From NCBI GenBank assembly GCA_036506275.1, contig DASXSB010000013.1, positions 65,393 through 129,392 of the forward strand: DNA of 64,000 nucleotides, read 5' to 3'. Positions 2,270-53,206 of the stretch are shown one piece after another. The notes beneath the pieces are model-generated. The model was not told where the DNA came from. It did not search any database and saw only the letters and a program-made list of their open reading frames with translations. A program made the translations under genes and the position numbers. This DNA is from Candidatus Methylomirabilota bacterium. GTDB taxonomy: Bacteria; Methylomirabilota; Methylomirabilia; Rokubacteriales; CSP1-6. Numbering within the stretch: the first letter of the stretch is position 1; each line of letters opens with the position of its first letter.

Positions 2270-2521
2270 CTAGGGAAGGATGACGTCGCGCTCGATCGGG
2301 TCGACCTGCACCCCACGCCCCTTGAGCCACGCCACGCCGCGCGCGAGCGTGGCCTCGTCCGCTTCCAGCTCCAGCGCCACCCAGCCGTAGTCCGCCTTCA
2401 CGTCGGCGCGACGGATGTTGATGACGATGTCGAAGTCCTTCACGAGACGGTAGAGGATCGGTTCCTGGATCAGCGCAGGCGGGAACGTCAGGCGCAGGCG
2501 CATGCGGCTCATGATCGCCAT
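2270..2521 (-). CDS. NIL-domain small protein (ferredoxin-like fold found C-terminal in MetN), partner of the sulfur-carrier system
   Basis: 83 aa: MAIMSRMRLRLTFPPALIQEPILYRLVKDFDIVINIRRADV...ALELEADEATLARGVAWLKGRGVQVDPIE. The pattern resembles a standalone NIL domain. It lies immediately downstream of the MoaD-like gene on the same strand. Confidence 0.55.
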   Translation of the reverse strand: MAIMSRMRLRLTFPPALIQEPILYRLVKDFDIVINIRRADVKADYGWVALELEADEATLARGVAWLKGRGVQVDPIERDVILP

Positions 2522-2527
2522 CCGGCC

Positions 2528-2806
2528 TCAGCGTCCTCCGGCGATGGCGGGCACGATCGACACCTCGTCACCGTCCTTGAGCGTGGTCGTCTTCGCCTGG
2601 AGGAACCGGATGTCCTCGCCGTTGACGTAGACGTTGATGAACCGCCGCAGCTCACCCGTGTCGTCCACGAGCCGCTCCCGGAGCCCGGGGAACTGGCGGT
2701 CGAGATCCTCCACGACGTCGGCCACGGTATCGCCCTTCGCCTGCACTTCGGCGTTGCCCTTGGTGAGGGAGCGGAGCGGTGTGGGAACCCGGACGAGCAC
2801 GGCCAT
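2528..2806 (-). CDS. MoaD/ThiS/CysO-like sulfur-carrier protein (C-terminal GG)
   Basis: 92 aa beta-grasp-like sequence ending ...VSIVPAIAGGR, with a Gly-Gly near the C-terminus. It is separated from the thrC-like gene stop by 9 nt. Confidence 0.8.
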   Translation of the reverse strand: MAVLVRVPTPLRSLTKGNAEVQAKGDTVADVVEDLDRQFPGLRERLVDDTGELRRFINVYVNGEDIRFLQAKTTTLKDGDEVSIVPAIAGGR

Positions 2807-2815
2807 GCGTCCTCC

Positions 2816-12796: not shown

Positions 12797-13417
12797 GTGG
12801 GTGACGCTGTTCGTCTCGTCGTCTATTCCGACTATCTCTGACCGTGGTGCTATCCGGCGGCCGTGCGCCTCCGGCGACTCTCCGAGGAGCTCGGCTCCCG
12901 GCTGACCATCGAGCATCGCGCGTTTCCGCTGCGCCCTGCCCCTGATCCGAGCGTGCGTTTCAAGGGCACCTACCGCGAGGAAGGCTGGCGGCGCTGCGCT
13001 CGCATGTCGGCGGCGGACGGCATCACGTTCACCCCGTGGCCGCACGACACGTTCGCCACGTGGAGTCTCCCCGCTCTCGAAGCCGCCAAATGCGTGGCGC
13101 GGCAGGGCGACGAGGCGCTCTTCGAGCGTGTCCACCTCCGGCTCTACGAGGCCTTCTTCCGCGACAGCCGCAACATCTCCGATCGCGACGAGGTGACCCG
13201 CATCGTCGCCGAAACCGCCGTCGACATACCGCGCTTCACCGCCGATTACGCGTCCGGCGTGGGACGCGAGGCCGTGCTCGCCGACTATCGCGCGGCGGTG
13301 ACCGAGGAGGGCGTACAGGCGATTCCCACCGTGATCGTCGAGGCAACGGGAGAGCGCCTGGTCGGCCTCGCCGACGCCGCCACCTATCGTGCCGCAGTCG
13401 AGGAGGCGGCCGCCTAG
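12797..13417 (+). CDS. DsbA/FrnE-like thioredoxin-fold oxidoreductase with in-frame TGA (candidate selenocysteine, UPWC active site)
   Basis: The reading frame from GTG 12797 gives VGDAVRLVVYSDYL-[TGA 12839-12841]-PWCYPAAVRLRRLSEELG...GVQAIPTVIV (cis-Pro loop). The TGA sits exactly where the first Cys of the CPWC motif belongs. The track shows only the 3' part, from GTG 12863. A TTGAGG-N17-TAGAAT promoter-like sequence lies at 12753-12787. Confidence 0.6.
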
Positions 13418-18212: not shown

Positions 18213-19415
18213 ATGATCTCGGTGCAGGACGCTCAGCGCGACATCCTGGAGCGCATCGCGACCCCGACCGCGCCCGAGATGGTCGCCCTTCCCGCCGCCG
18301 CCGGCCGTGTCCTCGCGGAGCCGCTGCGCGCCCCCTTCGACGTTCCCCCCGCCGACAACTCCGCCGTGGACGGCTACGCGGTGGCGAGCAGCGACATCCC
18401 CGCTGCGGGCACACGCGACCTCGACGTCATCGCGGACCTGCCGGCGGGATCGGTGTTCGCCGGCACCGTGCAACGCGGCCAGACGGTGCGGATCATGACG
18501 GGCGCGCCGCTACCGGCGGGCGTGGACACGGTGTTCCCCCAGGAGGTCGTGGAGCGCGCCGGCGAGCGCGTGCGCATCGGCCATCTCCGCCGCGGCATCA
18601 ACGTTCGTCTCCGCGGCGAGGACGTCACGAGCGGCTCCGTGGTGCTGGAGGCGGGCACGGCCCTGCGACCACAAGACATCGGGCTCGCGGCGTCGCTCGG
18701 TCTCTGCGCGGTGCTCGTGCACCGGCGCCCGCGCGTGGCCCTGCTCTCCACCGGCGACGAGGTCGCGGAGCCGGGCACCCCCCGCCGGCCCGGTCAGATC
18801 TATGACGCCAATCGCTTCGCCCTTCGCGCGTCCATCGAGCGGTGCGGCGGCGCCGTCGTCGATCTCGGCATCGCGCCCGACGTCCGCGACGAGCTGCGGG
18901 CGCGCCTGCTCGACGCCAGCCGCATCGCGGACGTGGTGATCACGTCGGGCGGTGTTTCCGTGGGGCTCTACGACCTCGTGAAGAGCGTGCTCGCCGAGAT
19001 CGGCGGCGTCGAATTCTGGCAGGTCGCCATGCAGCCGGGACGCCCGCTCGCGGCCGGCCGCATCGGCGACGCCCACTTCTTCGGACTCCCCGGCAATCCG
19101 GTGGCGTCGATGCTCACGTTCATGCTGTTCGTACGGCCCGCGTTATGGAAGCTCTCCGGTCGCCGCCGACTGTTCCCGGAAACGTTTGCGGCGCGGGCGG
19201 CGGAAGCGATGACCAAGAAGTCGGGACGCCGCGAGTTCAAGCGCGGGATCCTGCGCTATTGCGGCGGCGTGTGGGAAGTCTCGACCACGGGCCCGCAGGG
19301 ATCGGGCATTCTCAGCTCGATGGTGACGGGCAACTGCCTCGTGGTGCTGGAGGAAGACCGCGGCGACGTCGCCCCCGGCGACACCGTGCTCGTGGAGCCG
19401 TTCGAGCCATGCTGA
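18213..19415 (+). CDS. moeA: molybdopterin molybdenumtransferase MoeA
   Basis: Contains NSAVDGYAV, the MoeA N/linker/MPT-binding/C-terminal architecture, and GLPGNPVAS. Preferred start MISVQDAQRDIL. Confidence 0.9.
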   Translation: MISVQDAQRDILERIATPTAPEMVALPAAAGRVLAEPLRAPFDVPPADNSAVDGYAVASSDIPAAGTRDLDVIADLPAGSVFAGTVQRGQTVRIMTGAPLPAGVDTVFPQEVVERAGERVRIGHLRRGINVRLRGEDVTSGSVVLEAGTALRPQDIGLAASLGLCAVLVHRRPRVALLSTGDEVAEPGTPRRPGQIYDANRFALRASIERCGGAVVDLGIAPDVRDELRARLLDASRIADVVITSGGVSVGLYDLVKSVLAEIGGVEFWQVAMQPGRPLAAGRIGDAHFFGLPGNPVASMLTFMLFVRPALWKLSGRRRLFPETFAARAAEAMTKKSGRREFKRGILRYCGGVWEVSTTGPQGSGILSSMVTGNCLVVLEEDRGDVAPGDTVLVEPFEPC

Positions 19416-19870
19416 TGGGCGTGCCCGCAGCAATTCGCGCCATGACCCCGCGCGCCCTCGTGGTGCCGCTTCTGACGAGTGCCATCCTCCTCGTCGGCGC
19501 CGCCCCCGCCGCTCCTCCCGACGCCCCCGTGAGCTTCATCAAGGTCGAGGAGCTCAAGCGTCTCCTCGACGCGCGGACCAAGGCCGACATCATCGACGTC
19601 CGCCACTGGGAGCAGTTCTCGGAGGTTCACATCAAGGGCGCGCGCTCGATGCCGCTGCGCGCGGTGCCGGAGCGCGCGCGCGAGATCAGCAAGAGCGGGC
19701 TCGTCGTCTTCTACTGAACGTGCCCGCATGCCCTGGCCCGGGGGGCCAGCAACATCCTGTACGGGCTCGGGTGGCGCAATCACCGCGTGCTCGAGGAAGG
19801 GTTGCCGGGGTGGATCGACCGCGGCTACCCGGTGGAGGGCACCAACCCCACCGCTCCGCCCGGCCACTGA
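19409..19870 (+). CDS. secreted single-domain rhodanese with in-frame TGA at the catalytic loop (candidate selenoprotein)
   Basis: The ATG overlaps the moeA stop. The N-terminus has a signal-like hydrophobic segment. Rhodanese motifs read IIDVRHWEQFSEVHIKGARSMPL...SGLVVFY-[TGA 19715-19717]-TCPHALARGASNILYGLGWRNHRVLEEGLPGWIDRGYPVEG. The reading frame is continuous and the sequence past the TGA is conserved rhodanese C-terminus. A GC hairpin ctggccc-ggg-gggccag lies 16 nt downstream of the TGA (19733-19749). Confidence 0.6.
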
Positions 19871-19884
19871 GAACGAACGCCCGC

Positions 19885-20859
19885 TCAGGCGACGGACGAC
19901 GACTTCGACACCGGCCGCAGCGTCGCGAACGCGACGAGGCCGGCCGCGATCCACGCCACCTCGCGCACGCGGCGCGCGAGCCCGAAAGCCAGCGCCGTGC
20001 TCGACCCCAGGCCGAGGGCGCCGAACGTGGCCACGAACCCGCCCTCGACCGCGCCCACGCTGGCCGGGATGACGAATGTGGCGAGACGGACGGCGGCGCC
20101 GATGGCCTCGATCACCGTCGCCGTCACCCATGAGACCTCCACCCCGAGAAATCTCAGGATGAGGTAGGTCTCCACCGCCCCCAGGAGCCACGCCACGAAG
20201 TGACAGGCGATGGAGAGCGCGAAGCGGCGCCGCTCTCCGCGATAGAAGTGCGCGAGGGCTGCGTCCACGCGCTCGAGCGAGGCCTCCGCCAGAAGCGCGG
20301 GAGGCACCCCCAGGCGCCCGAGGGCGGCGGCCCCGCGCCCGAAGACCCCGCGCGTCTGCACGAACACGAACGAGGCGAGGGCGACCGCCTCCACCACGAA
20401 GAGCCAGCCCATGGCCTCGAGGAGAGGCGTGGCCGACAGCGCCGTCCACGACGCCAGCGCCACCCCGACGAGGAGAAAGAGCGCCTGCGCGATCGTGATC
20501 GAGGTCTTGGCGACGATCACCGACGCCACCGCCTCGTCGAAGGCGGCGTGACCGCGCAGGAGCCACGCCTTCACCGCCTCCCCCCCGATGGTGGCGGTGG
20601 GCGTGATGGCGTTGAAGGCTTCGCCCGCCAGCCGCGTGACCGTCAGCGTCCGGAACGGGACCACGTCGCGCGCGAACGCGAACCGCCACCCGAGGGTGTC
20701 GAACAGCACCACGAGCGAGTGCGGGAAGCACACCACGATCGCGAGCCGCCACGAGATCCGCCCCATCTCGGCGAGGATGGCTTCGGGATCGTTCTCGACG
20801 ATGAGGAGGGTGAGCAGGCCGAGGCCGAGCGCGAGGAGCGCAGGTCGCCACCACCGCAT
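19885..20859 (-). CDS. membrane protein of the lysylphosphatidylglycerol-synthase TM-region / flippase-like family (UPF0104)
   Basis: 324 aa polytopic protein, MRWWRPALLALGLGLLTLLIV..., with the LPG_synthase_TM-like pattern. It is the last gene of the coupled operon. Confidence 0.65.
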   Translation of the reverse strand: MRWWRPALLALGLGLLTLLIVENDPEAILAEMGRISWRLAIVVCFPHSLVVLFDTLGWRFAFARDVVPFRTLTVTRLAGEAFNAITPTATIGGEAVKAWLLRGHAAFDEAVASVIVAKTSITIAQALFLLVGVALASWTALSATPLLEAMGWLFVVEAVALASFVFVQTRGVFGRGAAALGRLGVPPALLAEASLERVDAALAHFYRGERRRFALSIACHFVAWLLGAVETYLILRFLGVEVSWVTATVIEAIGAAVRLATFVIPASVGAVEGGFVATFGALGLGSSTALAFGLARRVREVAWIAAGLVAFATLRPVSKSSSVA

Positions 20860-20868
20860 CGCGCGACG

Positions 20869-22437
20869 TCAGCTCTCTCGGTAGAAGATCAGGAAGACGC
20901 CGACGAGGCTGAACGCCCACGCCCACAGGCGTCCGGGGACCGCATCGTCCGGCGGCGCCATCCGCAGCTCGAGCCAGCGCGCCCACCCGGCCATCAGGCC
21001 CAGCACACCGAGCGGCGCGTGGGTGATCTCGATGAGGAACTCGGACTTGAGATCGCCCAGCGCGTGCGAGTGCGTGAGCAGGAGGGCGCCGCCCACGGCG
21101 CACAGCAGCGGGAAGACGAGGGCGGCGCGCCGGTGGCCCAGGCGTCCCGCCCGCACCCGCCACTCGAAGAGCCCGAAGCCGACCACGAGCAGCACGAACA
21201 GCCGGTGCTGGAGGACCTCTGCGTAGCCGAAGCTCTCCCAGAATCCGAGCGGTCCCAGCGGCCACGCGCCCGGGTCGTTGCGCACGAGCAGGAACGCCGC
21301 GAGGCCGAGGAACACCAGCGGCCAGTGTCGCGCCCACTTCCCCCACCGCGCGCGATGCACGAGGGCGAGCACGCCCATGGTGAGCACGAAGAACCCCGCC
21401 ATGTGGTGGTTGTACTCGGACCACGCGCGGTCGGCGGCCGTGCGCGGAGCGTCGCGATCCTCCACCGGCAGCTCCGTGATCGGCGGCGACGAGAGCCGCG
21501 GCCACTGCGGCGTGAACCGGCCCGCTACCTCGGCCACGCTCGCGCGGTCGGCCACGTCGATGGCGGGCGGCATCGACGTCAGGGAGGCGGCGGCGAAGAG
21601 CACGGTGAGGCCGAGCCCCAGCTCCACCTCGACGAAGCGCCGCACGCGCGTCACGCCGACGTCGGCGCCGTCCCGGAGGCGCCGGACGGCGAGGAAATTG
21701 GCGGCGCCGAGCACGAGGAGCAAGGCGAGCAGCACGACCTTGGTGATCACCATCACTCCGTACGAGGTGCCGAGCAGCGCGGATGTCCCGTCGATGTACT
21801 GCGCGGAGAGCGCGACGCCCGCCACCACCAGCGCCGCCACCGCCGCCAGCGCCATCGCCGAGAATCGGCGGAGCATCGACATCGGCCACGGCGCGCCGGG
21901 ACCGCCGAGAACGGCGGCGGTGAGGTGCACGAGGCCACCCACCCACACCGCCGCCGCCAGCTGGTGGGTGGCGTCGAGCGCGGTCGGCAGGAGGCGGTGA
22001 TCGAGGCGCGCCATGGCATGGCTGAGCGACGCCGCGCTCGCGGCGAGCAAGATGGCAAGAGCGCCGAGCGTCCACGACGCCGCCGTCCCCTGCCCGCGGC
22101 GCCGCACCGTCAGCGCCGTCACCGCCAGCGCCGCGCAGATGGCCATCCGCATCACGGTCGCGCGGAAGTACGTGGTGCCGGAGAGCTCCGCCAGCGGCCA
22201 TCCGCTGCCGTCATCGAGCGCCGCCAGGTGCACGCCGAGGGCGAGGCATTGCGCGACGGCGACGCCGACGGCGCCCGCCGTCACGAGCACGAGCGAGCGC
22301 CGGACGAGCGCGGTCAGCGTGGGCGGAGGAAGCCCGGCCGGCCGAAGGACGAGCAGGATGAAGAAGACGCCGCCGACGGCGATCGCCTGGCTCGCGAGCG
22401 CGATACCGCGCAGGAGGACATCGAGAAAGCCCGCCAC
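20869..22437 (-). CDS. CopD-family membrane protein fused to a CtaG/caa3-assembly-like C-terminal domain
   Basis: 522 aa. The N-terminal half is a CopD-like helix bundle. The C-terminal half (SEYNHHMAGFFVLTMG...THSH) resembles CtaG. Confidence 0.6.
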   Translation of the reverse strand: MAGFLDVLLRGIALASQAIAVGGVFFILLVLRPAGLPPPTLTALVRRSLVLVTAGAVGVAVAQCLALGVHLAALDDGSGWPLAELSGTTYFRATVMRMAICAALAVTALTVRRRGQGTAASWTLGALAILLAASAASLSHAMARLDHRLLPTALDATHQLAAAVWVGGLVHLTAAVLGGPGAPWPMSMLRRFSAMALAAVAALVVAGVALSAQYIDGTSALLGTSYGVMVITKVVLLALLLVLGAANFLAVRRLRDGADVGVTRVRRFVEVELGLGLTVLFAAASLTSMPPAIDVADRASVAEVAGRFTPQWPRLSSPPITELPVEDRDAPRTAADRAWSEYNHHMAGFFVLTMGVLALVHRARWGKWARHWPLVFLGLAAFLLVRNDPGAWPLGPLGFWESFGYAEVLQHRLFVLLVVGFGLFEWRVRAGRLGHRRAALVFPLLCAVGGALLLTHSHALGDLKSEFLIEITHAPLGVLGLMAGWARWLELRMAPPDDAVPGRLWAWAFSLVGVFLIFYRES

Positions 22438-22444
22438 CGGCCGG

Positions 22445-23620
22445 TCAGCGCGCGCGGCGCCCGAGCCACGCCAGCAAGACCAGAAACGCAGGCGCGCCCG
22501 CCGCGGTGATGGCGACGAACCAGTGTGCCCGGCCGAAGGCGGCGAGGAGAACGATCACGTAGATGAAGTCGCGATAGGTCATGGTGTCGGCCACGCGGCC
22601 GAGCAACGAGCCGCGGTCGGCATCGGTGGAGGCACGCATCCCGCGGCTGTACACGACCACCGCCGACCACGCCGTCCCCGCCACCGCGAGAGCGCCGAGC
22701 AGCAGCGGCCACGGCGCGCGCGCCTCCAGGCTCCAGCCCATCGCCATGCACGCGAAGACGGCGGCGTGGACGGCGTTGTCGCCGACGACGTCGAGGAGGG
22801 CACCGAGGCGCGATTCCTGAAACTTCAGCCGCGCCAGCTCGCCGTCGCAGCCGTCGAGGATGGAGTGGGTCAGGAACAGCAGTGCTCCCGGGAGCTGCCA
22901 GGCGGGGGACGTGGACAGAAAGAACGGCGCGCTCAGGAAGCCGATCCCGAGGCTCACGAGGGTCATGGTGTTCGGCGTGACCCGGGTTCCGCACAACCGG
23001 CGCGTGATGGCGAGGGAGATGCGGCGCTCGAGGAGCCGCGACATCACGCCCTCGTTCGGCTTCACGAGGCGCCGCAGGAGCCACGTTTCCGCTCCGCGCA
23101 GATCGTGTCGGTCGGCGAGGATCAGACGCGCGTCGCCGAGGCCGCCGTCGATGGTCTTCGCCGTCGTGCGCAACGCGTCCACGAGCTGCGCCATCCCGCC
23201 ACCGGTGGCCGCCAGCGCCAGCACGCTCCCGCATTGCGACGCCTCCACCACCGCCACCGACGCTCCATCGACGTAGGCGTGGTCGGGCTCGATCGCCATC
23301 GTCCGCAGCCGTCGCAGCCACTCGACGGCGGGCACGACGTTGCCGGCCACGAACACGATTCGCCGCGCGCCCACGGCCGGAAACGGAACACCGGGCGCGA
23401 GCACGTGGGCGGGCGCGTCGACGACGTCACGCGGCCCGTCGAGGTCCGGATGCCGCACGACGATGCGACCGAAGCCGGCGCGGTCGGCGGCGAGCACGAT
23501 ACGTCGCCACACAGGAACGCCCGCGAGCACGGTGCGCGGCGACACCGCCTCCGTGCCATCACGCGTGGAGGGCAAGACCACGAGCATGGCGTCGTCCGCC
23601 ACCGCCGTCGCTCCCGTCAT
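22445..23620 (-). CDS. bifunctional-looking protein: N-terminal nucleotidyltransferase-like domain + C-terminal CDP-alcohol phosphatidyltransferase
   Basis: 391 aa. The C-terminal part reads DGCDGELARL...LGALLDVVGDNAVHAAV, the CDP-OH phosphotransferase signature D-G-x2-A-R-x8-G-x3-D-x3-D. The N-terminal ~180 aa has a cytidylyltransferase-like fold without a canonical G-rich loop. The architecture resembles IPCT/DIPPS. Confidence 0.7.
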   Translation of the reverse strand: MTGATAVADDAMLVVLPSTRDGTEAVSPRTVLAGVPVWRRIVLAADRAGFGRIVVRHPDLDGPRDVVDAPAHVLAPGVPFPAVGARRIVFVAGNVVPAVEWLRRLRTMAIEPDHAYVDGASVAVVEASQCGSVLALAATGGGMAQLVDALRTTAKTIDGGLGDARLILADRHDLRGAETWLLRRLVKPNEGVMSRLLERRISLAITRRLCGTRVTPNTMTLVSLGIGFLSAPFFLSTSPAWQLPGALLFLTHSILDGCDGELARLKFQESRLGALLDVVGDNAVHAAVFACMAMGWSLEARAPWPLLLGALAVAGTAWSAVVVYSRGMRASTDADRGSLLGRVADTMTYRDFIYVIVLLAAFGRAHWFVAITAAGAPAFLVLLAWLGRRAR

Positions 23621-24681
23621 GCGAGAAGTCCCGCCACCGCGGCGGGAAGCGGCGCGGGCGGCATCTCGACGGAGAGCGCGGCCCCGTGGCGACGGCTGGA
23701 CTCACGGGCGAGCGCTTCCAGCACCACGCACAGCGAGGCCTCCACGAGGTTGCCGCTCCCCGGCGCGGGGGCGTCGAGCGCGCGCATGAACTGCTCCGCG
23801 ACCTCGTGGAACCAGTCGGGGTGATGGGAGCCGTCGGAGAGCGCGGGCGGGCACGACCAGCGCTCCTCCGTCGTGGCGTGGCCGGGTCGCGTGAGGATCA
23901 CGGTGTCGTCCTCGAGCCGGATGCTGCCCGCCGTCCCCGTCAGCTCCGCGTGATTCCGCCGCTCGTCGGACGCCCACGTCAACAACACTTCCGCGGTGGC
24001 CTCCGGATACGTCAACCGAACGGTGGCGGTGTCCTCGACGGCGAACTGCGTGTGTCGGCGCGTCTCGAGGGTGGCGCTGACGGCGGTCGGCCGCTCGCCG
24101 ATCCAGCGTCCGAGGACATAGAACACGTGCCAGCCGTGATCGGTGAGCACGCCGCCTCCCGCCACCCCGGGATCGACACGCCAGTTGTCGGCGGGATCGC
24201 GTCCGGCCGCGGGTTTCCTGCGCAGCGTGTGCCAGGTGACGTGACGAAGGCCGCCGATGGCGCCGTCGCACACCAGCTCGCGCACACGCTGCACGATGGG
24301 CGCATGATGCCAGTTGTGAACGGTGTGGAGGACGCGACCGGTCGCGGACGCGCGTCCCACCACCAGCGCCAGCTCGTCGAGGGAGCGAACGAGCGGCTTC
24401 TCGCAGAGGACGTGCAGGTTGCGGTCGAGCGCGCTCGCGATGATCCCGGCGTGGCTCGAGGGCGGCGTGCAGACGTCGACGAAGTCGAACGCCTCGCGGG
24501 CGAGGAGCGCGGCCGTGGAGTCGTACCACCGCACGTCGGGGAGGCGGGCCTCGACCTCCGGGCGGCGCGCGCCGTCGGTGTCGGTGGCCGCCACGATCGT
24601 GACGTCGTCGCGCTTCAGCCAGCCCGGCACGTGGGCGTTCAGGGAAACGCCGCCCACGCCCACGATCGCGCCTCGCCGCAC
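23617..24681 (-). CDS. Gfo/Idh/MocA-family NAD(P)-dependent oxidoreductase (inositol/sugar dehydrogenase-like)
   Basis: The GTG start (VRRGAIVGVGGVSLNAHVPGWL) overlaps the upstream stop. The EKPL motif is present. Confidence 0.8.
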   Translation of the reverse strand: MRRGAIVGVGGVSLNAHVPGWLKRDDVTIVAATDTDGARRPEVEARLPDVRWYDSTAALLAREAFDFVDVCTPPSSHAGIIASALDRNLHVLCEKPLVRSLDELALVVGRASATGRVLHTVHNWHHAPIVQRVRELVCDGAIGGLRHVTWHTLRRKPAAGRDPADNWRVDPGVAGGGVLTDHGWHVFYVLGRWIGERPTAVSATLETRRHTQFAVEDTATVRLTYPEATAEVLLTWASDERRNHAELTGTAGSIRLEDDTVILTRPGHATTEERWSCPPALSDGSHHPDWFHEVAEQFMRALDAPAPGSGNLVEASLCVVLEALARESSRRHGAALSVEMPPAPLPAAVAGLLA

Positions 24682-52031: not shown

Positions 52032-52840
52032 TCGGGAACGCCCTCGAGCGGCGAGGAGGCGGTGGCGTAGAGCTTCTTGCCGATGCGACCCGCGCGGTAC
52101 GCGAGGCGCCCCGCCTCCACGGCCAGCCGCATCGCGCGCGCCATCGCGGCCGGATCGCCGGCGCCGGCGATGGCGGTGTTCATGAGCACGCCGTCGCAGC
52201 CGAGCTCCATGGCGATGGCGGCGTCGGATGCGGTGCCCACGCCGGCATCCACGATCACCGGCACCGACACCGACTCCAGGATGATCTTGATGTTGTACGG
52301 GTTCCTGATGCCGAGGCCGGAGCCGATGGGCGCGCCGAGCGGCATCACGCACGCCGCCCCCGCCTCCTCCAGACGTTTGGCGATGACGGGATCGTCGTTC
52401 GTGTACGGCATCACCACGAACCCGTCGCGCGCGAGCGTGCGCGTCGCCTCCAGCAAGCCGTGCACGTCCGGAAACAACGTGCGCACGTCGCCGATGACCT
52501 CGAGCTTGACCATCTCCCCGAGCCCCGCCTCCCGCGCGAGGTACGCGGTGCGGACGGCCTCGTCGGCGGTGTAGCAGCCGGCCGTGTTCGGGAGCAGCGT
52601 GTAGCGGGTGGTGTCGATGTGATCCAGGATGGAGTCGCCGCTGCCGGGCAGGCTCACGCGTCGCACGGCGACGGTCACGATTTGGGCGCCGGACTCCTCG
52701 TGGGCCTGGCGCATGACGTCGTTGGACGAGTACTTCCCCGTGCCCACGATGAGCCGCGAGCTGAATTCCTTGCCGCCCAGGACCAGGTTCGTGTCGTGCA
52801 TCTCAACCCTCCGCGCCCGCGCGGGCGGCGCTCCGTTCAT
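52019..52840 (-). CDS. thiG: thiazole synthase ThiG
   Basis: [17 protein letters not shown] and [12 protein letters not shown] are ThiG motifs. An ATGA overlap joins it to the thiS stop. Confidence 0.9.
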
Positions 52841-53055
52841 CCACCGCCCATGGGGCGGACGATCTCGATCTTGTCGCCGGGGGCCAGCCGCGTGGAGGCG
52901 TAGTGGCTCTTCGGCGTCACGTCGCGGTTGACGGCGACGGCGGTGAACTCGCGCTTCACCCCGAGGTGACTCAAGAGGTCGTCGACCGTGAGACCGTCCG
53001 GAACCTCCATCGTCTTCCCGTTCACCACGATCGTCACGCGCGCGCCCTCAAACAC
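52837..53055 (-). CDS. thiS: sulfur-carrier protein ThiS
   Basis: 72 aa ending in GGG. A GTG start at 53055 is preceded by a GGGAG SD. Confidence 0.85.
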
Positions 53056-53102
53056 GAACGGCCGCTCCCGTCACCGGGCGCGGCCGTGATGCTCTTCGCC
53101 GC
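53056..53102 (-). promoter_or_regulatory. riboswitch expression platform: hairpin GGCCGC-GCCCG-gtga-CGGGAG-CGGCC sequestering the thiS SD
   Basis: The hairpin at 53060-53085 contains GGGAG, the only SD candidate for the GTG at 53055, and is followed by guucguguuug. Confidence 0.5.
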
Positions 53103-53178
53103 GTTCCCTTCGCTGGGATTATCCAGTGCAGGTTCGAGGGGTCCCGGGCCGCACCCGGTTCTCAGGAGACCTCCCCCC
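53103..53178 (-). ncRNA. TPP (THI-box) riboswitch aptamer
   Basis: The minus strand reads ggggaggtctcCTGAGAaccgggtgcggcccgggACCCctcgaACCTGcaCTGGATAATcCCAGCGaAGGGAac. This matches the conserved CUGAGA and ACCUGAUCUGGAUAAUGCCAGCGAAGGGA THI-element blocks and lies directly upstream of thiS. Confidence 0.85.
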
Positions 53179-53206
53179 ACGGCAGACTCGAAGTATACGC
53201 GCGGAT

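What the first reader, a model, noticed from the sequence alone, without database searches (positions are those of the whole stretch)
19409..19870. Secreted rhodanese co-operonic with moeA carries an in-frame TGA in the catalytic loop, followed by a SECIS-like GC hairpin
The rhodanese ORF (ATG overlapping the moeA stop) reads ...KSGLVVFY-TGA-TCPHALARGASNILYGLGWRNHRVLEEGLPGWIDRGYPVEG in a single frame. The residue after the beta-strand hhhY is where rhodaneses carry the catalytic Cys; a Cys follows two residues later, which would give a U-x-C pair. Sixteen nt after the TGA there is a perfect hairpin ctggccc-ggg-gggccag (19733-19749), at the spacing expected for a bacterial SECIS. Together with the DsbA-like case this argues that the organism decodes UGA as Sec. 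Linkage to moeA suggests a role in sulfur or selenium delivery for molybdenum-cofactor chemistry.
Basis: partly seen in the sequence, partly recalled or inferred. Interest (0 to 1): 0.85.

Follow-up and report, generated by a model that had tools for sequence, protein, structure and literature searches.

The report
Selenocysteine-containing exported rhodanese gene in Rokubacteria
The in-frame TGA is real and almost certainly encodes selenocysteine at the catalytic position of a small exported rhodanese that is conserved across Rokubacteria; this adds one more member to the known class of rhodanese selenoproteins and is not a new kind of system.

Summary
One frame runs 19409/19442-19870, with TGA at 19715-19717 after ..VVFY, Cys two residues later, and a perfect 7-bp hairpin at 19733-19749.

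- **Conservation.** All 22 orthologous loci fetched (16 distinct sequences, Rokubacteria/Methylomirabilota) carry TGA at this codon. The 50 codons downstream are under purifying selection (dN/dS about 0.2).
- **Cys orthologs.** Two orthologs in the same operon carry TGC instead and have lost the hairpin.
- **Truncated calls.** Most of the 120 database relatives listed (of 868 hits) are 89-91 aa gene calls; every one inspected ends at ..VVFY.
- **Hairpin.** On its own it is near chance level in 71% GC DNA. However, its codons show no synonymous variation in the Sec forms, and it fits the published bacterial SECIS model.
- **Sec machinery.** A tRNA-Sec/selA/selB cluster was found in a MAG labelled Rokubacteria, and in an assembly that also holds the Sec-rhodanese. 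The window's own genome could not be checked.
- **Second case.** A DsbA-like gene in the window has a conserved TGA too.
- **moeA.** Linkage to moeA is conserved but usually interrupted by a PmbA/TldD gene. The signal peptide argues against a role in molybdenum-cofactor synthesis.

The U-x-C motif is absent from a 2026 catalogue of rhodanese selenoproteins. Verdict: new member of a known kind.

The parts
19409..19870 (+). Complete selenoprotein gene (rhodanese, 153 codons from ATG 19409, or 142 from ATG 19442), read through the internal TGA
   Evidence: Single frame. Pfam PF00581 spans the TGA. Orthologues are collinear to the last codon. JGI calls the truncated gene from 19409; orthologues start at the equivalent of 19442.
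19442..19510 (+). Predicted signal peptide (MTPRALVVPLLTSAILLVGAAPA): basic N-region, about 17 hydrophobic residues, small residues at the likely cleavage site, no lipobox Cys, no twin-arginine motif
   Evidence: Read from the sequence. The pattern is conserved in orthologues. It forms an N-terminal helix in the AlphaFold model of the Cys orthologue. No signal-peptide predictor was available, so export is inferred.
19544..19816 (+). Rhodanese domain
   Evidence: PF00581, E = 8.4e-14, residues 46-136 of the 153-aa reading. The Foldseek top hits of the Cys-orthologue model are all single-domain rhodaneses.
19715..19717 (+). UGA selenocysteine codon at the canonical catalytic-Cys position
   Evidence: TGA in 22/22 Sec-form loci, never TAA or TAG. 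TGC in the syntenic orthologues L135 and L136. Aligned to the catalytic Cys of 3tp9 and 6mxv.
19721..19723 (+). Cys at +2, completing the U-x-C motif (candidate resolving residue)
   Evidence: Invariant Cys in all Sec and Cys forms. The nearest Cys families carry Y-C-x-C-P.
19733..19753 (+). bSECIS element. Core hairpin 19733-19749 (7-bp stem, GGG loop). In orthologues the stem extends to 9 bp using the bases equivalent to 19731-19732 and 19750-19751.
   Evidence: Codons +6 to +12 show no synonymous variation in 16 distinct sequences apart from CGG/CGT in the loop, against 30 of 31 variable degenerate codons elsewhere. Hairpin MFE is -9.8 to -17 kcal/mol in all Sec forms, and the hairpin is degraded in the Cys forms. 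It fits the bSECIS model quoted in PMC13188914.
19868..19870 (+). True stop codon, also TGA, with no hairpin after it
   Evidence: TGA is therefore not reassigned genome-wide; moeA also ends in TGA (19413-19415).
18213..19415 (+). moeA, the upstream gene, whose stop overlaps ATG 19409
   Evidence: MoeA_N, MoCF_biosynth and MoeA_C domains. It lies upstream of the rhodanese in every related locus whose upstream region was covered.

Best explanation
This is a genuine selenoprotein gene: a small single-domain rhodanese with an N-terminal signal peptide. The catalytic cysteine is replaced by selenocysteine (U), encoded by UGA at 19715-19717.

**How recoding works (inferred from the established bacterial mechanism).** During translation, the hairpin 22 nt downstream (19733-19749, loop GGG) would act as a bacterial SECIS. 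It would bind SelB carrying Sec-tRNA(Sec), so that the ribosome inserts Sec instead of terminating. The second TGA at 19868 has no such hairpin and terminates.

**What is shown.**
- The UGA and the coding sequence after it are conserved.
- Orthologues with Cys at this site exist in the same operon.
- There is RNA-level constraint on the hairpin.
- selC, selA and selB are present in the lineage.

**What is inferred about the protein.** It is exported by the Sec pathway and acts in the periplasm as a sulfane-sulfur (or selenium) transferase or redox protein. The selenolate would carry the persulfide, and the Cys two residues on (U-T-C-P) would resolve it through a selenenylsulfide. I put this biochemical part at no more than about 0.4. 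The confidence given below refers to the selenoprotein identity.
For: 1. TGA is present at the same codon in the window and in 21 further loci (16 distinct sequences) from Rokubacteria/Methylomirabilota genomes and metagenomes.
2. Most of the 120 listed relatives, out of 868 hits, are 89-91 aa gene calls. Every one whose sequence was fetched ends at ..VVFY. Further 50%-identity clusters are truncated at the same place.
3. Downstream dN/dS is 0.16-0.20 against 0.38 upstream. No in-frame start codon follows the TGA before codon +24.
4. The Cys orthologues P0002 and P0004 carry TGC. P0002 lies in a complete MoeA-PmbA/TldD-Rhd-PmbA/TldD-transketolase operon. The P0004 contig begins just upstream and shows the same arrangement from the rhodanese onward.
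5. U aligns with the catalytic Cys of solved rhodaneses.
6. The hairpin is present in all Sec forms (-9.8 to -17 kcal/mol) and its synonymous sites are invariant (4 of 4 fully degenerate codons, against 1 of 31 elsewhere). The loop is G[G/U]G. There is one G-C to C-G compensatory change. The hairpin is lost in the Cys forms.
7. The hairpin meets all four bSECIS criteria of PMC13188914.
8. Sec machinery is present. L149 (GCA_016209365.1, named Candidatus Rokubacteria bacterium) carries tRNA-Sec (Rfam 69.7 bits), SelA, and SelB with its SelB-specific domains. L151 carries the same cluster and comes from assembly GCA_037025565.1, which also holds the Sec-rhodanese locus L143.
9. A second gene in the window, DsbA-like, has TGA in place of the first Cys of CPWC, and this is conserved in L003.
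10. A near-identical independent contig (L148, 99.9%) carries the same TGA.
Against: - No Sec machinery lies in the 64-kb window or in the 12 genomic loci, and the window's own genome could not be searched.
- selD was not found in any Rokubacteria locus.
- The assemblies that hold both the sel cluster and the rhodanese may be metagenomes rather than single genomes.
- Formal covariation is weak. There is one compensatory pair, in one sequence (31 of 500 shuffles reach it), and that sequence has AGA rather than TGA.
- In 9 of 16 Sec forms the stem has a U-C mismatch.
- RNAalifold on 13 sequences proposed a different consensus fold.
- The hairpin in the window alone is near chance level.
- The active-site loop (UTCPHA) lacks the canonical rhodanese Arg and Ser/Thr, so sulfurtransferase chemistry is an assumption.
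- Export is inferred by eye, not by a predictor.
Confidence: 0.88

Rival explanations
1. Truncated pseudogene or split gene: the TGA terminates translation, and the downstream 150 nt is a decaying remnant or a separate small gene.
For: Every gene caller and NCBI's annotation stop at the TGA, giving 89-102 aa products named rhodanese-like domain-containing protein. L002 has an additional in-frame TAG 15 codons further on.
Against: The downstream part is conserved to its last codon in 15 of 16 distinct sequences, with dN/dS of 0.16-0.20. The stop is always TGA. No start codon is available for a separate ORF. The rhodanese domain is split by the TGA, so neither half is a domain. The Cys orthologues are uninterrupted.
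Confidence: 0.02
2. UGA is recoded, but not to selenocysteine. One option is Cys through a SelC*-type tRNA (tRNA-ReC). Another is near-cognate read-through giving Trp, Cys or Arg.
For: Cys is functional at this site in orthologues. One contig has AGA (Arg) at the site with the hairpin intact. PMC13582414 reports SelC* tRNAs in some Sec-using genomes.
Against: The tRNAs found next to selA-selB in Rokubacteria loci match Rfam tRNA-Sec above threshold, and SelA is present. A conserved SECIS-type hairpin is the signature of SelB-dependent decoding. No SelC* was looked for or seen.
Confidence: 0.05
3. The gene is a selenoprotein gene, but the 19733-19749 hairpin is not the SECIS. Its conservation would reflect protein constraint on L-[AS]-R-G-A-S or GC-rich chance pairing, and the real element would be another fold, such as the GCCC/GGGC pairing proposed by RNAalifold.
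For: RNAalifold's consensus pairs columns 11-14 with 32-35 instead. Hairpins of this kind follow 4.7% of TGA triplets in the window. Nine of 16 sequences have a mismatch in the stem. Covariation rests on one event.
Against: Protein constraint cannot explain invariant third positions (CTG, GGG, GCC and AGC in 16 of 16) when neighbouring degenerate codons vary. The residues change and the pairing is lost exactly in the Cys forms. The U-C mismatch always co-occurs with an extra G-C pair at the stem base (9 of 9, against 2 of 7). Slid registers pair far worse (25-56% against 86%).
Confidence: 0.07
4. The rhodanese is a cytoplasmic partner of MoeA and delivers sulfur or selenium for molybdenum-cofactor chemistry.
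For: moeA lies immediately upstream, overlapping by 7 nt in the window and within 1.6 kb in the related loci. Weak matches to the rhodanese domains of MoeZ and MoeB.
Against: A hydrophobic N-terminal signal-like segment is conserved in all orthologues. The MoeZ and MoeB scores are 26 and 22 bits against cut-offs of 647 and 449. A PmbA/TldD-like gene normally intervenes, and the operon continues into a second PmbA/TldD gene and a split transketolase. MoeA's reaction needs no sulfur donor (established knowledge).
Confidence: 0.08

Closest known systems
Rhodanese-like selenoproteins forms 1, 2 and 4 (PF00581; motifs UxxS and UxxG), catalogued in PMC13188914 and first reported from the Sargasso Sea metagenome (PMC1088965)
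   Same: A single rhodanese domain in which Sec replaces the catalytic Cys, with UGA followed by a coding-region bSECIS.
   Different: The motif here is U-T-C-P, with a second chalcogen two residues on and no Gly or Ser at +3. It has a predicted signal peptide and is confined, in the loci fetched here, to Rokubacteria/Methylomirabilota. The catalogue sequences themselves could not be fetched for alignment.
NCBIfam NF041203 rhodanese_LYCAU, 'rhodanese-related (seleno)protein' (form 3, CxU)
   Same: It is the best NCBIfam match and covers the whole domain (profile 15-124 of 126). A Cys/Sec pair spaced by one residue follows the ..Y of the same strand.
   Different: The score is 48.9 bits against a cut-off of 115. 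The order is reversed: Y-U-x-C here, Y-C-x-U there. Here Sec sits at the canonical catalytic position, not at +2. The position equivalence is inferred from the motif names, not aligned.
Secreted single-domain Y-C-x-C-P rhodaneses (uncharacterised Cys family; for example P0282 VVVYCACPHH, P0308 VLYCDCPAQ, P0351 VLYCACPNH, and the orthologues P0002 and P0004)
   Same: Same length, same N-terminal hydrophobic leader, same C-x-C-P loop and the same EGLPGW C-terminal motif. P0002 and P0004 are syntenic orthologues.
   Different: They carry Cys, not Sec, at the first position, and no SECIS hairpin.
Periplasmic rhodaneses PspE (E. coli) and Sud (Wolinella polysulfide-sulfur transferase)
   Same: Small exported single-domain rhodaneses. 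There are weak sequence and fold matches (PspE model 25 bits; 2jtq; 1qxn). This is the working analogy for a periplasmic sulfane-sulfur carrier.
   Different: The scores are far below the family cut-offs. Those proteins have one catalytic Cys in a canonical loop, no Sec and no C-x-C.
DsbA-like selenoproteins (PF01323, UxxC)
   Same: The other conserved TGA gene in this window (12798-13417) belongs to this known class. Together the two genes show that the organism uses Sec in thiol-redox proteins.
   Different: It has a different fold and a different motif (U-P-W-C).

Membership tests
Bacterial selenoprotein gene (Sec-UGA plus bSECIS) | In-frame UGA conserved at the same codon in orthologues | tested here: met
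   TGA in 22 of 22 Sec-form loci (16 distinct sequences), never TAA or TAG.
Bacterial selenoprotein gene (Sec-UGA plus bSECIS) | UGA aligns with Cys in homologues (Cys/Sec pair) | tested here: met
   TGC in the syntenic orthologues L135 and L136/L137. The wider YCxCP family also carries Cys there.
Bacterial selenoprotein gene (Sec-UGA plus bSECIS) | Sequence after the UGA is protein-coding and under purifying selection | tested here: met
   dN/dS is 0.20 (0.16 without the hairpin codons), against 0.38 upstream. The Pfam domain spans the UGA.
Bacterial selenoprotein gene (Sec-UGA plus bSECIS) | bSECIS model: 3-9 nt apical loop, 4-16 bp stem, G in the first two loop positions, 16-37 nt from the UGA, MFE of -7.5 kcal/mol or lower (PMC13188914) | tested here: met
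   Loop GGG or GUG, stem 7-9 bp, 22 nt spacing, MFE -9.8 to -17 kcal/mol in all Sec forms. Synonymous sites are frozen over the stem.
Bacterial selenoprotein gene (Sec-UGA plus bSECIS) | Base-pair covariation in the SECIS stem | tested here: inconclusive
   One G-C to C-G change in one sequence. 31 of 500 shuffles reach the observed score, and 5 of 9 pairs never vary.
Bacterial selenoprotein gene (Sec-UGA plus bSECIS) | selA, selB, selC and selD present in the same genome | tested here: inconclusive
   None in the window or in L001-L012, and the window's genome is not available. At lineage level, tRNA-Sec, selA and selB lie on a Rokubacteria-labelled MAG contig (L149), and on a contig of the assembly that also carries the Sec-rhodanese (L151 and L143, GCA_037025565.1). 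selD was not found.
Bacterial selenoprotein gene (Sec-UGA plus bSECIS) | Selenium actually incorporated; SelB binds the hairpin | not testable with these tools
   Needs 75Se labelling or MS, and binding or reporter assays.
Rhodanese homology domain (PF00581) | Profile match above the curated threshold and a rhodanese fold | tested here: met
   52.3 bits against a cut-off of 22.2. The AlphaFold model of the Cys orthologue (pLDDT 68) matches single-domain rhodaneses at probability 1.00.
Rhodanese homology domain (PF00581) | Nucleophile at the first position of the loop after the central beta-strand | tested here: met
   U aligns with the catalytic Cys of 3tp9 and 6mxv. In the model, strand 85-89 (LVVFY) is followed by C-T-C-P and then helix 94-106.
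Rhodanese homology domain (PF00581) | Canonical six-residue active-site loop C-R-x-G-x-[RT] of sulfurtransferases | tested here: not met
   The loop is U-T-C-P-H-A, with no Arg at +1 or +5 and no Ser/Thr at +6. Sulfurtransferase activity is therefore not assured.
NCBIfam NF041203 rhodanese_LYCAU (seleno)protein | Score at or above the curated cut-off, and a C-x-U motif | tested here: not met
   48.9 bits against 115. The motif is U-x-C.
Rhodanese selenoprotein forms 1, 2, 4 and 5 of the 2026 catalogue | Motif UxxS, UxxG, or UxxxxU with a DsbD fusion | tested here: not met
   The motif here is U-T-C-P. The TsoB model scores 21 bits against 805. The catalogue's example sequences could not be retrieved for direct alignment.
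MoeB/MoeZ-type rhodanese (Moco/thiocarboxylate sulfur relay) | Adenylyltransferase domain fused to the rhodanese; score above the cut-off | tested here: not met
   26.3 bits against 647 and 21.6 against 449. It is a single 142-153 aa domain with a signal-like leader.

The most novel reading that the evidence does not exclude
This would be an uncatalogued sixth form of rhodanese selenoprotein, specific to Rokubacteria/Methylomirabilota. It would be exported, carry a U-x-C selenenylsulfide motif that mirrors the C-x-U of the LYCAU family, and sit inside a conserved, translationally coupled MoeA / PmbA-TldD / Rhd / PmbA-TldD / split-transketolase operon whose joint function is unknown. If so, it points to a selenium-dependent periplasmic sulfur or redox activity in one of the most selenoprotein-rich bacterial phyla. 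Current annotation pipelines truncate it in every genome examined.
Probability: 0.5. Interest if true: 0.45.

Novelty: new member of a known kind. Interest (0 to 1): 0.4.

Why it matters
**Annotation.** The gene is mis-annotated as an 89-102 aa fragment in every assembly examined, including NCBI records. A family model with the recoded UGA would correct hundreds of entries.

**Selenoproteome.** It adds a form with a U-x-C motif and a predicted export signal to the rhodanese selenoproteins. It also supports reports that Methylomirabilota have very large selenoproteomes (PMC13188914).

**Natural experiment.** Syntenic Cys orthologues that have lost the hairpin offer a clean Cys/Sec comparison for studying SECIS gain or loss inside a coding sequence.

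**Limits.** It does not change how Sec decoding is understood, and the proposed link to molybdenum-cofactor synthesis does not hold up.

Tried and rejected
1. **Hairpin significance in isolation.** Folding the window hairpin alone gave z = +0.6. A count of hairpins after TGA triplets gave 4.7%. The hairpin is therefore not significant by itself.
2. **RNAalifold.** On 13 sequences it gave a different weak consensus with no covariation.
3. **Sec machinery nearby.** A search in the window and in L001-L012 with E. coli SelA, SelB and SelD and with ARAGORN found nothing.
4. **Metagenome scan.** A GC-biased SelA motif scan gave 120 loci. Tetranucleotide z-scores and codon usage could not pick out the Rokubacteria contigs.
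5. **Cluster look-ups.** Three exact look-ups assigned candidates to Gaiellales, Myxococcales, Coriobacteriia, Binatia, Gemmatimonadales, Terriglobales, Vicinamibacteria, Stutzerimonas and Chloroflexota. None was Rokubacteria.
6. **Chimeric query.** A concatenated SelA query to the protein database failed and wasted one search.
7. **What finally worked.** The last search, with the L072 SelA, reached a protein named Rokubacteria and then the sel clusters.
8. **Motif scans for the DsbA case.** My first scans missed it because only 14 codons precede its TGA. It was found from the ORF list.
9. **Other dead ends.** The representatives search rejected the U-to-C edited window protein, so the Cys orthologues were used instead. 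Papers on Rokubacteria plus selenocysteine gave nothing specific. Deng et al. 2026, the source of the report of a Methylomirabilota MAG with 63 selenoproteins, is not in the library.
Full report
**1. Observation**

The sequence is as described. Reading from ATG 19409, which overlaps the moeA stop at 19413-15, a single frame gives 102 codons, then TGA at 19715-19717, then 50 more codons ending at a second TGA at 19868-70. Orthologues begin at the position of ATG 19442, while JGI's gene call on a 99.9% identical contig uses 19409. The start is therefore ambiguous.

The Pfam Rhodanese domain (E = 8e-14) runs across the TGA. HMMER alignments to solved rhodaneses place the TGA exactly on the catalytic Cys, as in 3tp9 VYCRTGGRS and 6mxv FYCGGGFRS. 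A Cys follows at +2 (TGC, 19721-23).

The hairpin CTGGCCC-GGG-GGGCCAG is at 19733-19749. By itself it is unremarkable in 71% GC DNA. The local fold has z = +0.6 against shuffles, and 4.7% of all TGA triplets in the window are followed by a comparable hairpin at SECIS spacing.

**2. Comparative evidence for recoding**

A protein search returned 868 relatives. Most of the 120 listed are 89-91 aa gene calls, and every one whose sequence was fetched ends at ..VVFY.

A scan of one genome per species gave 12 loci, all from Rokubacteria/Methylomirabilota MAGs. Contig look-ups added more. Across the 22 Sec-form loci (16 distinct sequences):
- The codon is always TGA, and the reading frame continues to a conserved C-terminus..EGLPGW..GYPV.G...H.
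- dN/dS is 0.16-0.20 downstream of the TGA and 0.38 upstream.
- No in-frame start codon is available for a separate downstream ORF.
- TGA is also the normal stop of this gene and of moeA, so the code is not reassigned.

Two full-length relatives, P0002 and P0004, have TGC (Cys) at the site. P0002 lies in a complete DUF309/MoeA/PmbA-TldD/Rhd/PmbA-TldD/transketolase operon. The P0004 contig begins just upstream of the rhodanese and shows the same order from there on. They are orthologues, not paralogues.

A profile search of 1.8 billion representatives shows the nearest Cys family to be leader-bearing single-domain rhodaneses with a Y-C-x-C-P loop. Several further 50%-identity clusters are truncated at VV[FL]Y.

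**3. The SECIS**

In the 16 distinct Sec forms, codons +6 to +12 read CTG [G/T]CC CG[G/T] GGG GCC AGC [A/G]AC. They show no synonymous variation except CGG/CGT, which falls in the loop. By contrast, 30 of 31 other well-conserved four- to six-fold degenerate codons in the flanking 100 codons vary.

All Sec forms fold into the same hairpin at -9.8 to -17 kcal/mol, with loop GGG or GUG and 22 nt between the UGA and the loop. This meets all four criteria of the published bSECIS model.

Nine sequences have a U-C mismatch in the stem, and all nine gain an extra G-C pair at its base.

The two Cys forms have changed the encoded residues (MSQAAS, LSVGAS). They have lost the hairpin or replaced it with one whose loop lacks the required G.

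Formal covariation is thin. There is one G-C to C-G swap, in a short contig that oddly carries AGA instead of TGA, and 31 of 500 shuffles reach the observed score. RNAalifold on 13 sequences proposed a different weak fold. I therefore regard the SECIS assignment as well supported by constraint and by loss in the Cys forms, but not proven by covariation.

**4. Sec machinery**

The window and the 12 genomic loci contain no tRNA-Sec, selA, selB or selD.

After several failed attempts to identify Rokubacteria sel genes among metagenome hits, a search with one candidate SelA returned a protein that NCBI names L-seryl-tRNA(Sec) selenium transferase [Candidatus Rokubacteria bacterium].
- Its contig (GCA_016209365.1, L149) carries tRNA-Sec (ARAGORN; Rfam RF01852 at 69.7 bits against a threshold of 47), selA, and a selB with the SelB-specific beta-barrel and winged-helix domains.
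- The same syntenic cluster occurs on JBAIHD010000028.1 (L151), in assembly GCA_037025565.1. That assembly also contains the Sec-rhodanese on JBAIHD010000013.1 (L143). GCA_037025625.1 likewise has both.
- These assemblies may be metagenomes. However, the tetranucleotide profile of L151 matches the Rokubacteria reference as well as bona fide rhodanese loci do (0.90).

A 2026 review also reports a Methylomirabilota MAG predicted to hold 63 selenoprotein genes. Sec-type hydrogenases are reported from this phylum as well.

Within the window, a DsbA-like gene (GTG 12798 to 13417) has TGA at 12839-41 in place of the first Cys of the CPWC motif. Its orthologue in L003 has the same TGA.

**5. Context and function**

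Upstream synteny (DNA pol B, SDR, DUF309, RDD, MoeA) is conserved in the loci whose upstream region was covered. In the relatives, the rhodanese is flanked by two PmbA/TldD-like genes and followed by a split transketolase, with overlapping or abutting stops and starts.

The window's genome lacks those four genes and has LPG-synthase, CopD and CDP-alcohol transferase genes on the other strand instead. An independent contig confirms this arrangement.

The protein has a conserved basic-then-hydrophobic leader with small residues at the likely cleavage site. It has no lipobox and no twin-arginine motif. Export is my inference, as no predictor was available.

An exported protein is an unlikely partner for cytoplasmic MoeA, and the MoeB/MoeZ rhodanese models score far below threshold.

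The loop U-T-C-P-H-A is not the canonical sulfurtransferase loop. In the AlphaFold model of the Cys orthologue (pLDDT 68), it is a four-residue turn between strand LVVFY and the next helix. The fold matches single-domain rhodaneses.

My working mechanism is a periplasmic persulfide or redox carrier using a selenolate, with the +2 Cys resolving it through a selenenylsulfide. This is inference only.

**6. Comparison and novelty**

Sec-containing rhodaneses are an established class. PMC1088965 reported them in 2005, and the 2026 catalogue lists five forms with motifs UxxS, UxxG, CxU (NF041203), UxxG and UxxxxU.

This protein's best NCBIfam hit is NF041203, but at 48.9 bits against a cut-off of 115, and its motif is the mirror image: Y-U-x-C rather than Y-C-x-U. 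NCBI annotates a truncated relative as an ordinary rhodanese-like protein.

It therefore appears to be an uncatalogued form, although large deep-learning screens that I could not read may already list it.

**7. Verdict**

This is a real, correctly spotted selenoprotein gene and a new member of a known kind. Interest is moderate.

Noticed in passing
window 12798-13417 (+), TGA at 12839-12841: A second candidate selenoprotein gene. It is a DsbA-like oxidoreductase (PF01323) reading VGDAVRLVVYSDYL-TGA-PWCY.., with Sec in place of the first Cys of CPWC. The orthologue in L003 (TGA at 2091) keeps the TGA.
   Followed up: partly
window 19871-23701, compared with L135, L139 and L143: Every related locus that extends far enough has PmbA/TldD - rhodanese - PmbA/TldD - transketolase N - transketolase C after moeA. 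The window lacks these four genes and has LPG_synthase_TM, CopD and CDP-OH_P_transf genes on the minus strand instead. An independent JGI contig (L148, 99.9% identical) shows the same junction, so this is not a misassembly.
   Followed up: partly
L138:546-548 (836-nt ENA contig): One relative has AGA (Arg) at the Sec position. It keeps the strongest hairpin of all (-18.6 kcal/mol for the minimal hairpin), including a compensatory G-C to C-G change. It could be a sequencing error, a recent loss of Sec, or an inactive variant.
   Followed up: no
L002:10241-10243 (CAWBMV010000037.1, 533-kb contig): This Sec-form orthologue has an extra in-frame TAG 15 codons after the TGA (..ILY*LGW..). The rest is conserved. 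It is probably a base error in a long-read assembly, or a very recent pseudogene.
   Followed up: no
L149:406-5099; L151:8620-13305; L150; L152: The Rokubacteria-type sel locus has a fixed order: tRNA-Sec, DUF3105 protein, two small ORFs, selA, selB, tatA. In L151 it lies about 7.6 kb downstream of the 3' end of a 23S rRNA gene and a 5S rRNA gene. selD is not in the cluster.
   Followed up: partly
L064 and L054 (metagenome contigs; L064's SelA is labelled Coriobacteriia by exact cluster look-up, L054 is unassigned): The selD genes themselves carry an in-frame TGA at the N-terminal loop (..KAG*AAKYGP....KSG*ASKVGP..). They are Sec-containing SelD.
   Followed up: no
window 53087-53187 (-): A TPP riboswitch (RF00059, 56.1 bits against a threshold of 54.3) lies immediately upstream of a small ThiS-like ORF ending ..PMGGG (52837-53070, minus strand).
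   Followed up: no
window 2270-2815 (-): A MoaD/ThiS-like ORF ending ..AIAGGR is followed in the same frame, after a single TGA, by a second small ORF. They look like two adjacent genes rather than a recoding site.
   Followed up: no
P0387 (157 aa representative): A relative of the YCxCP family has G-N-R in place of C-x-C (VVFYGNRPRHL). This is a naturally nucleophile-less form.
   Followed up: no
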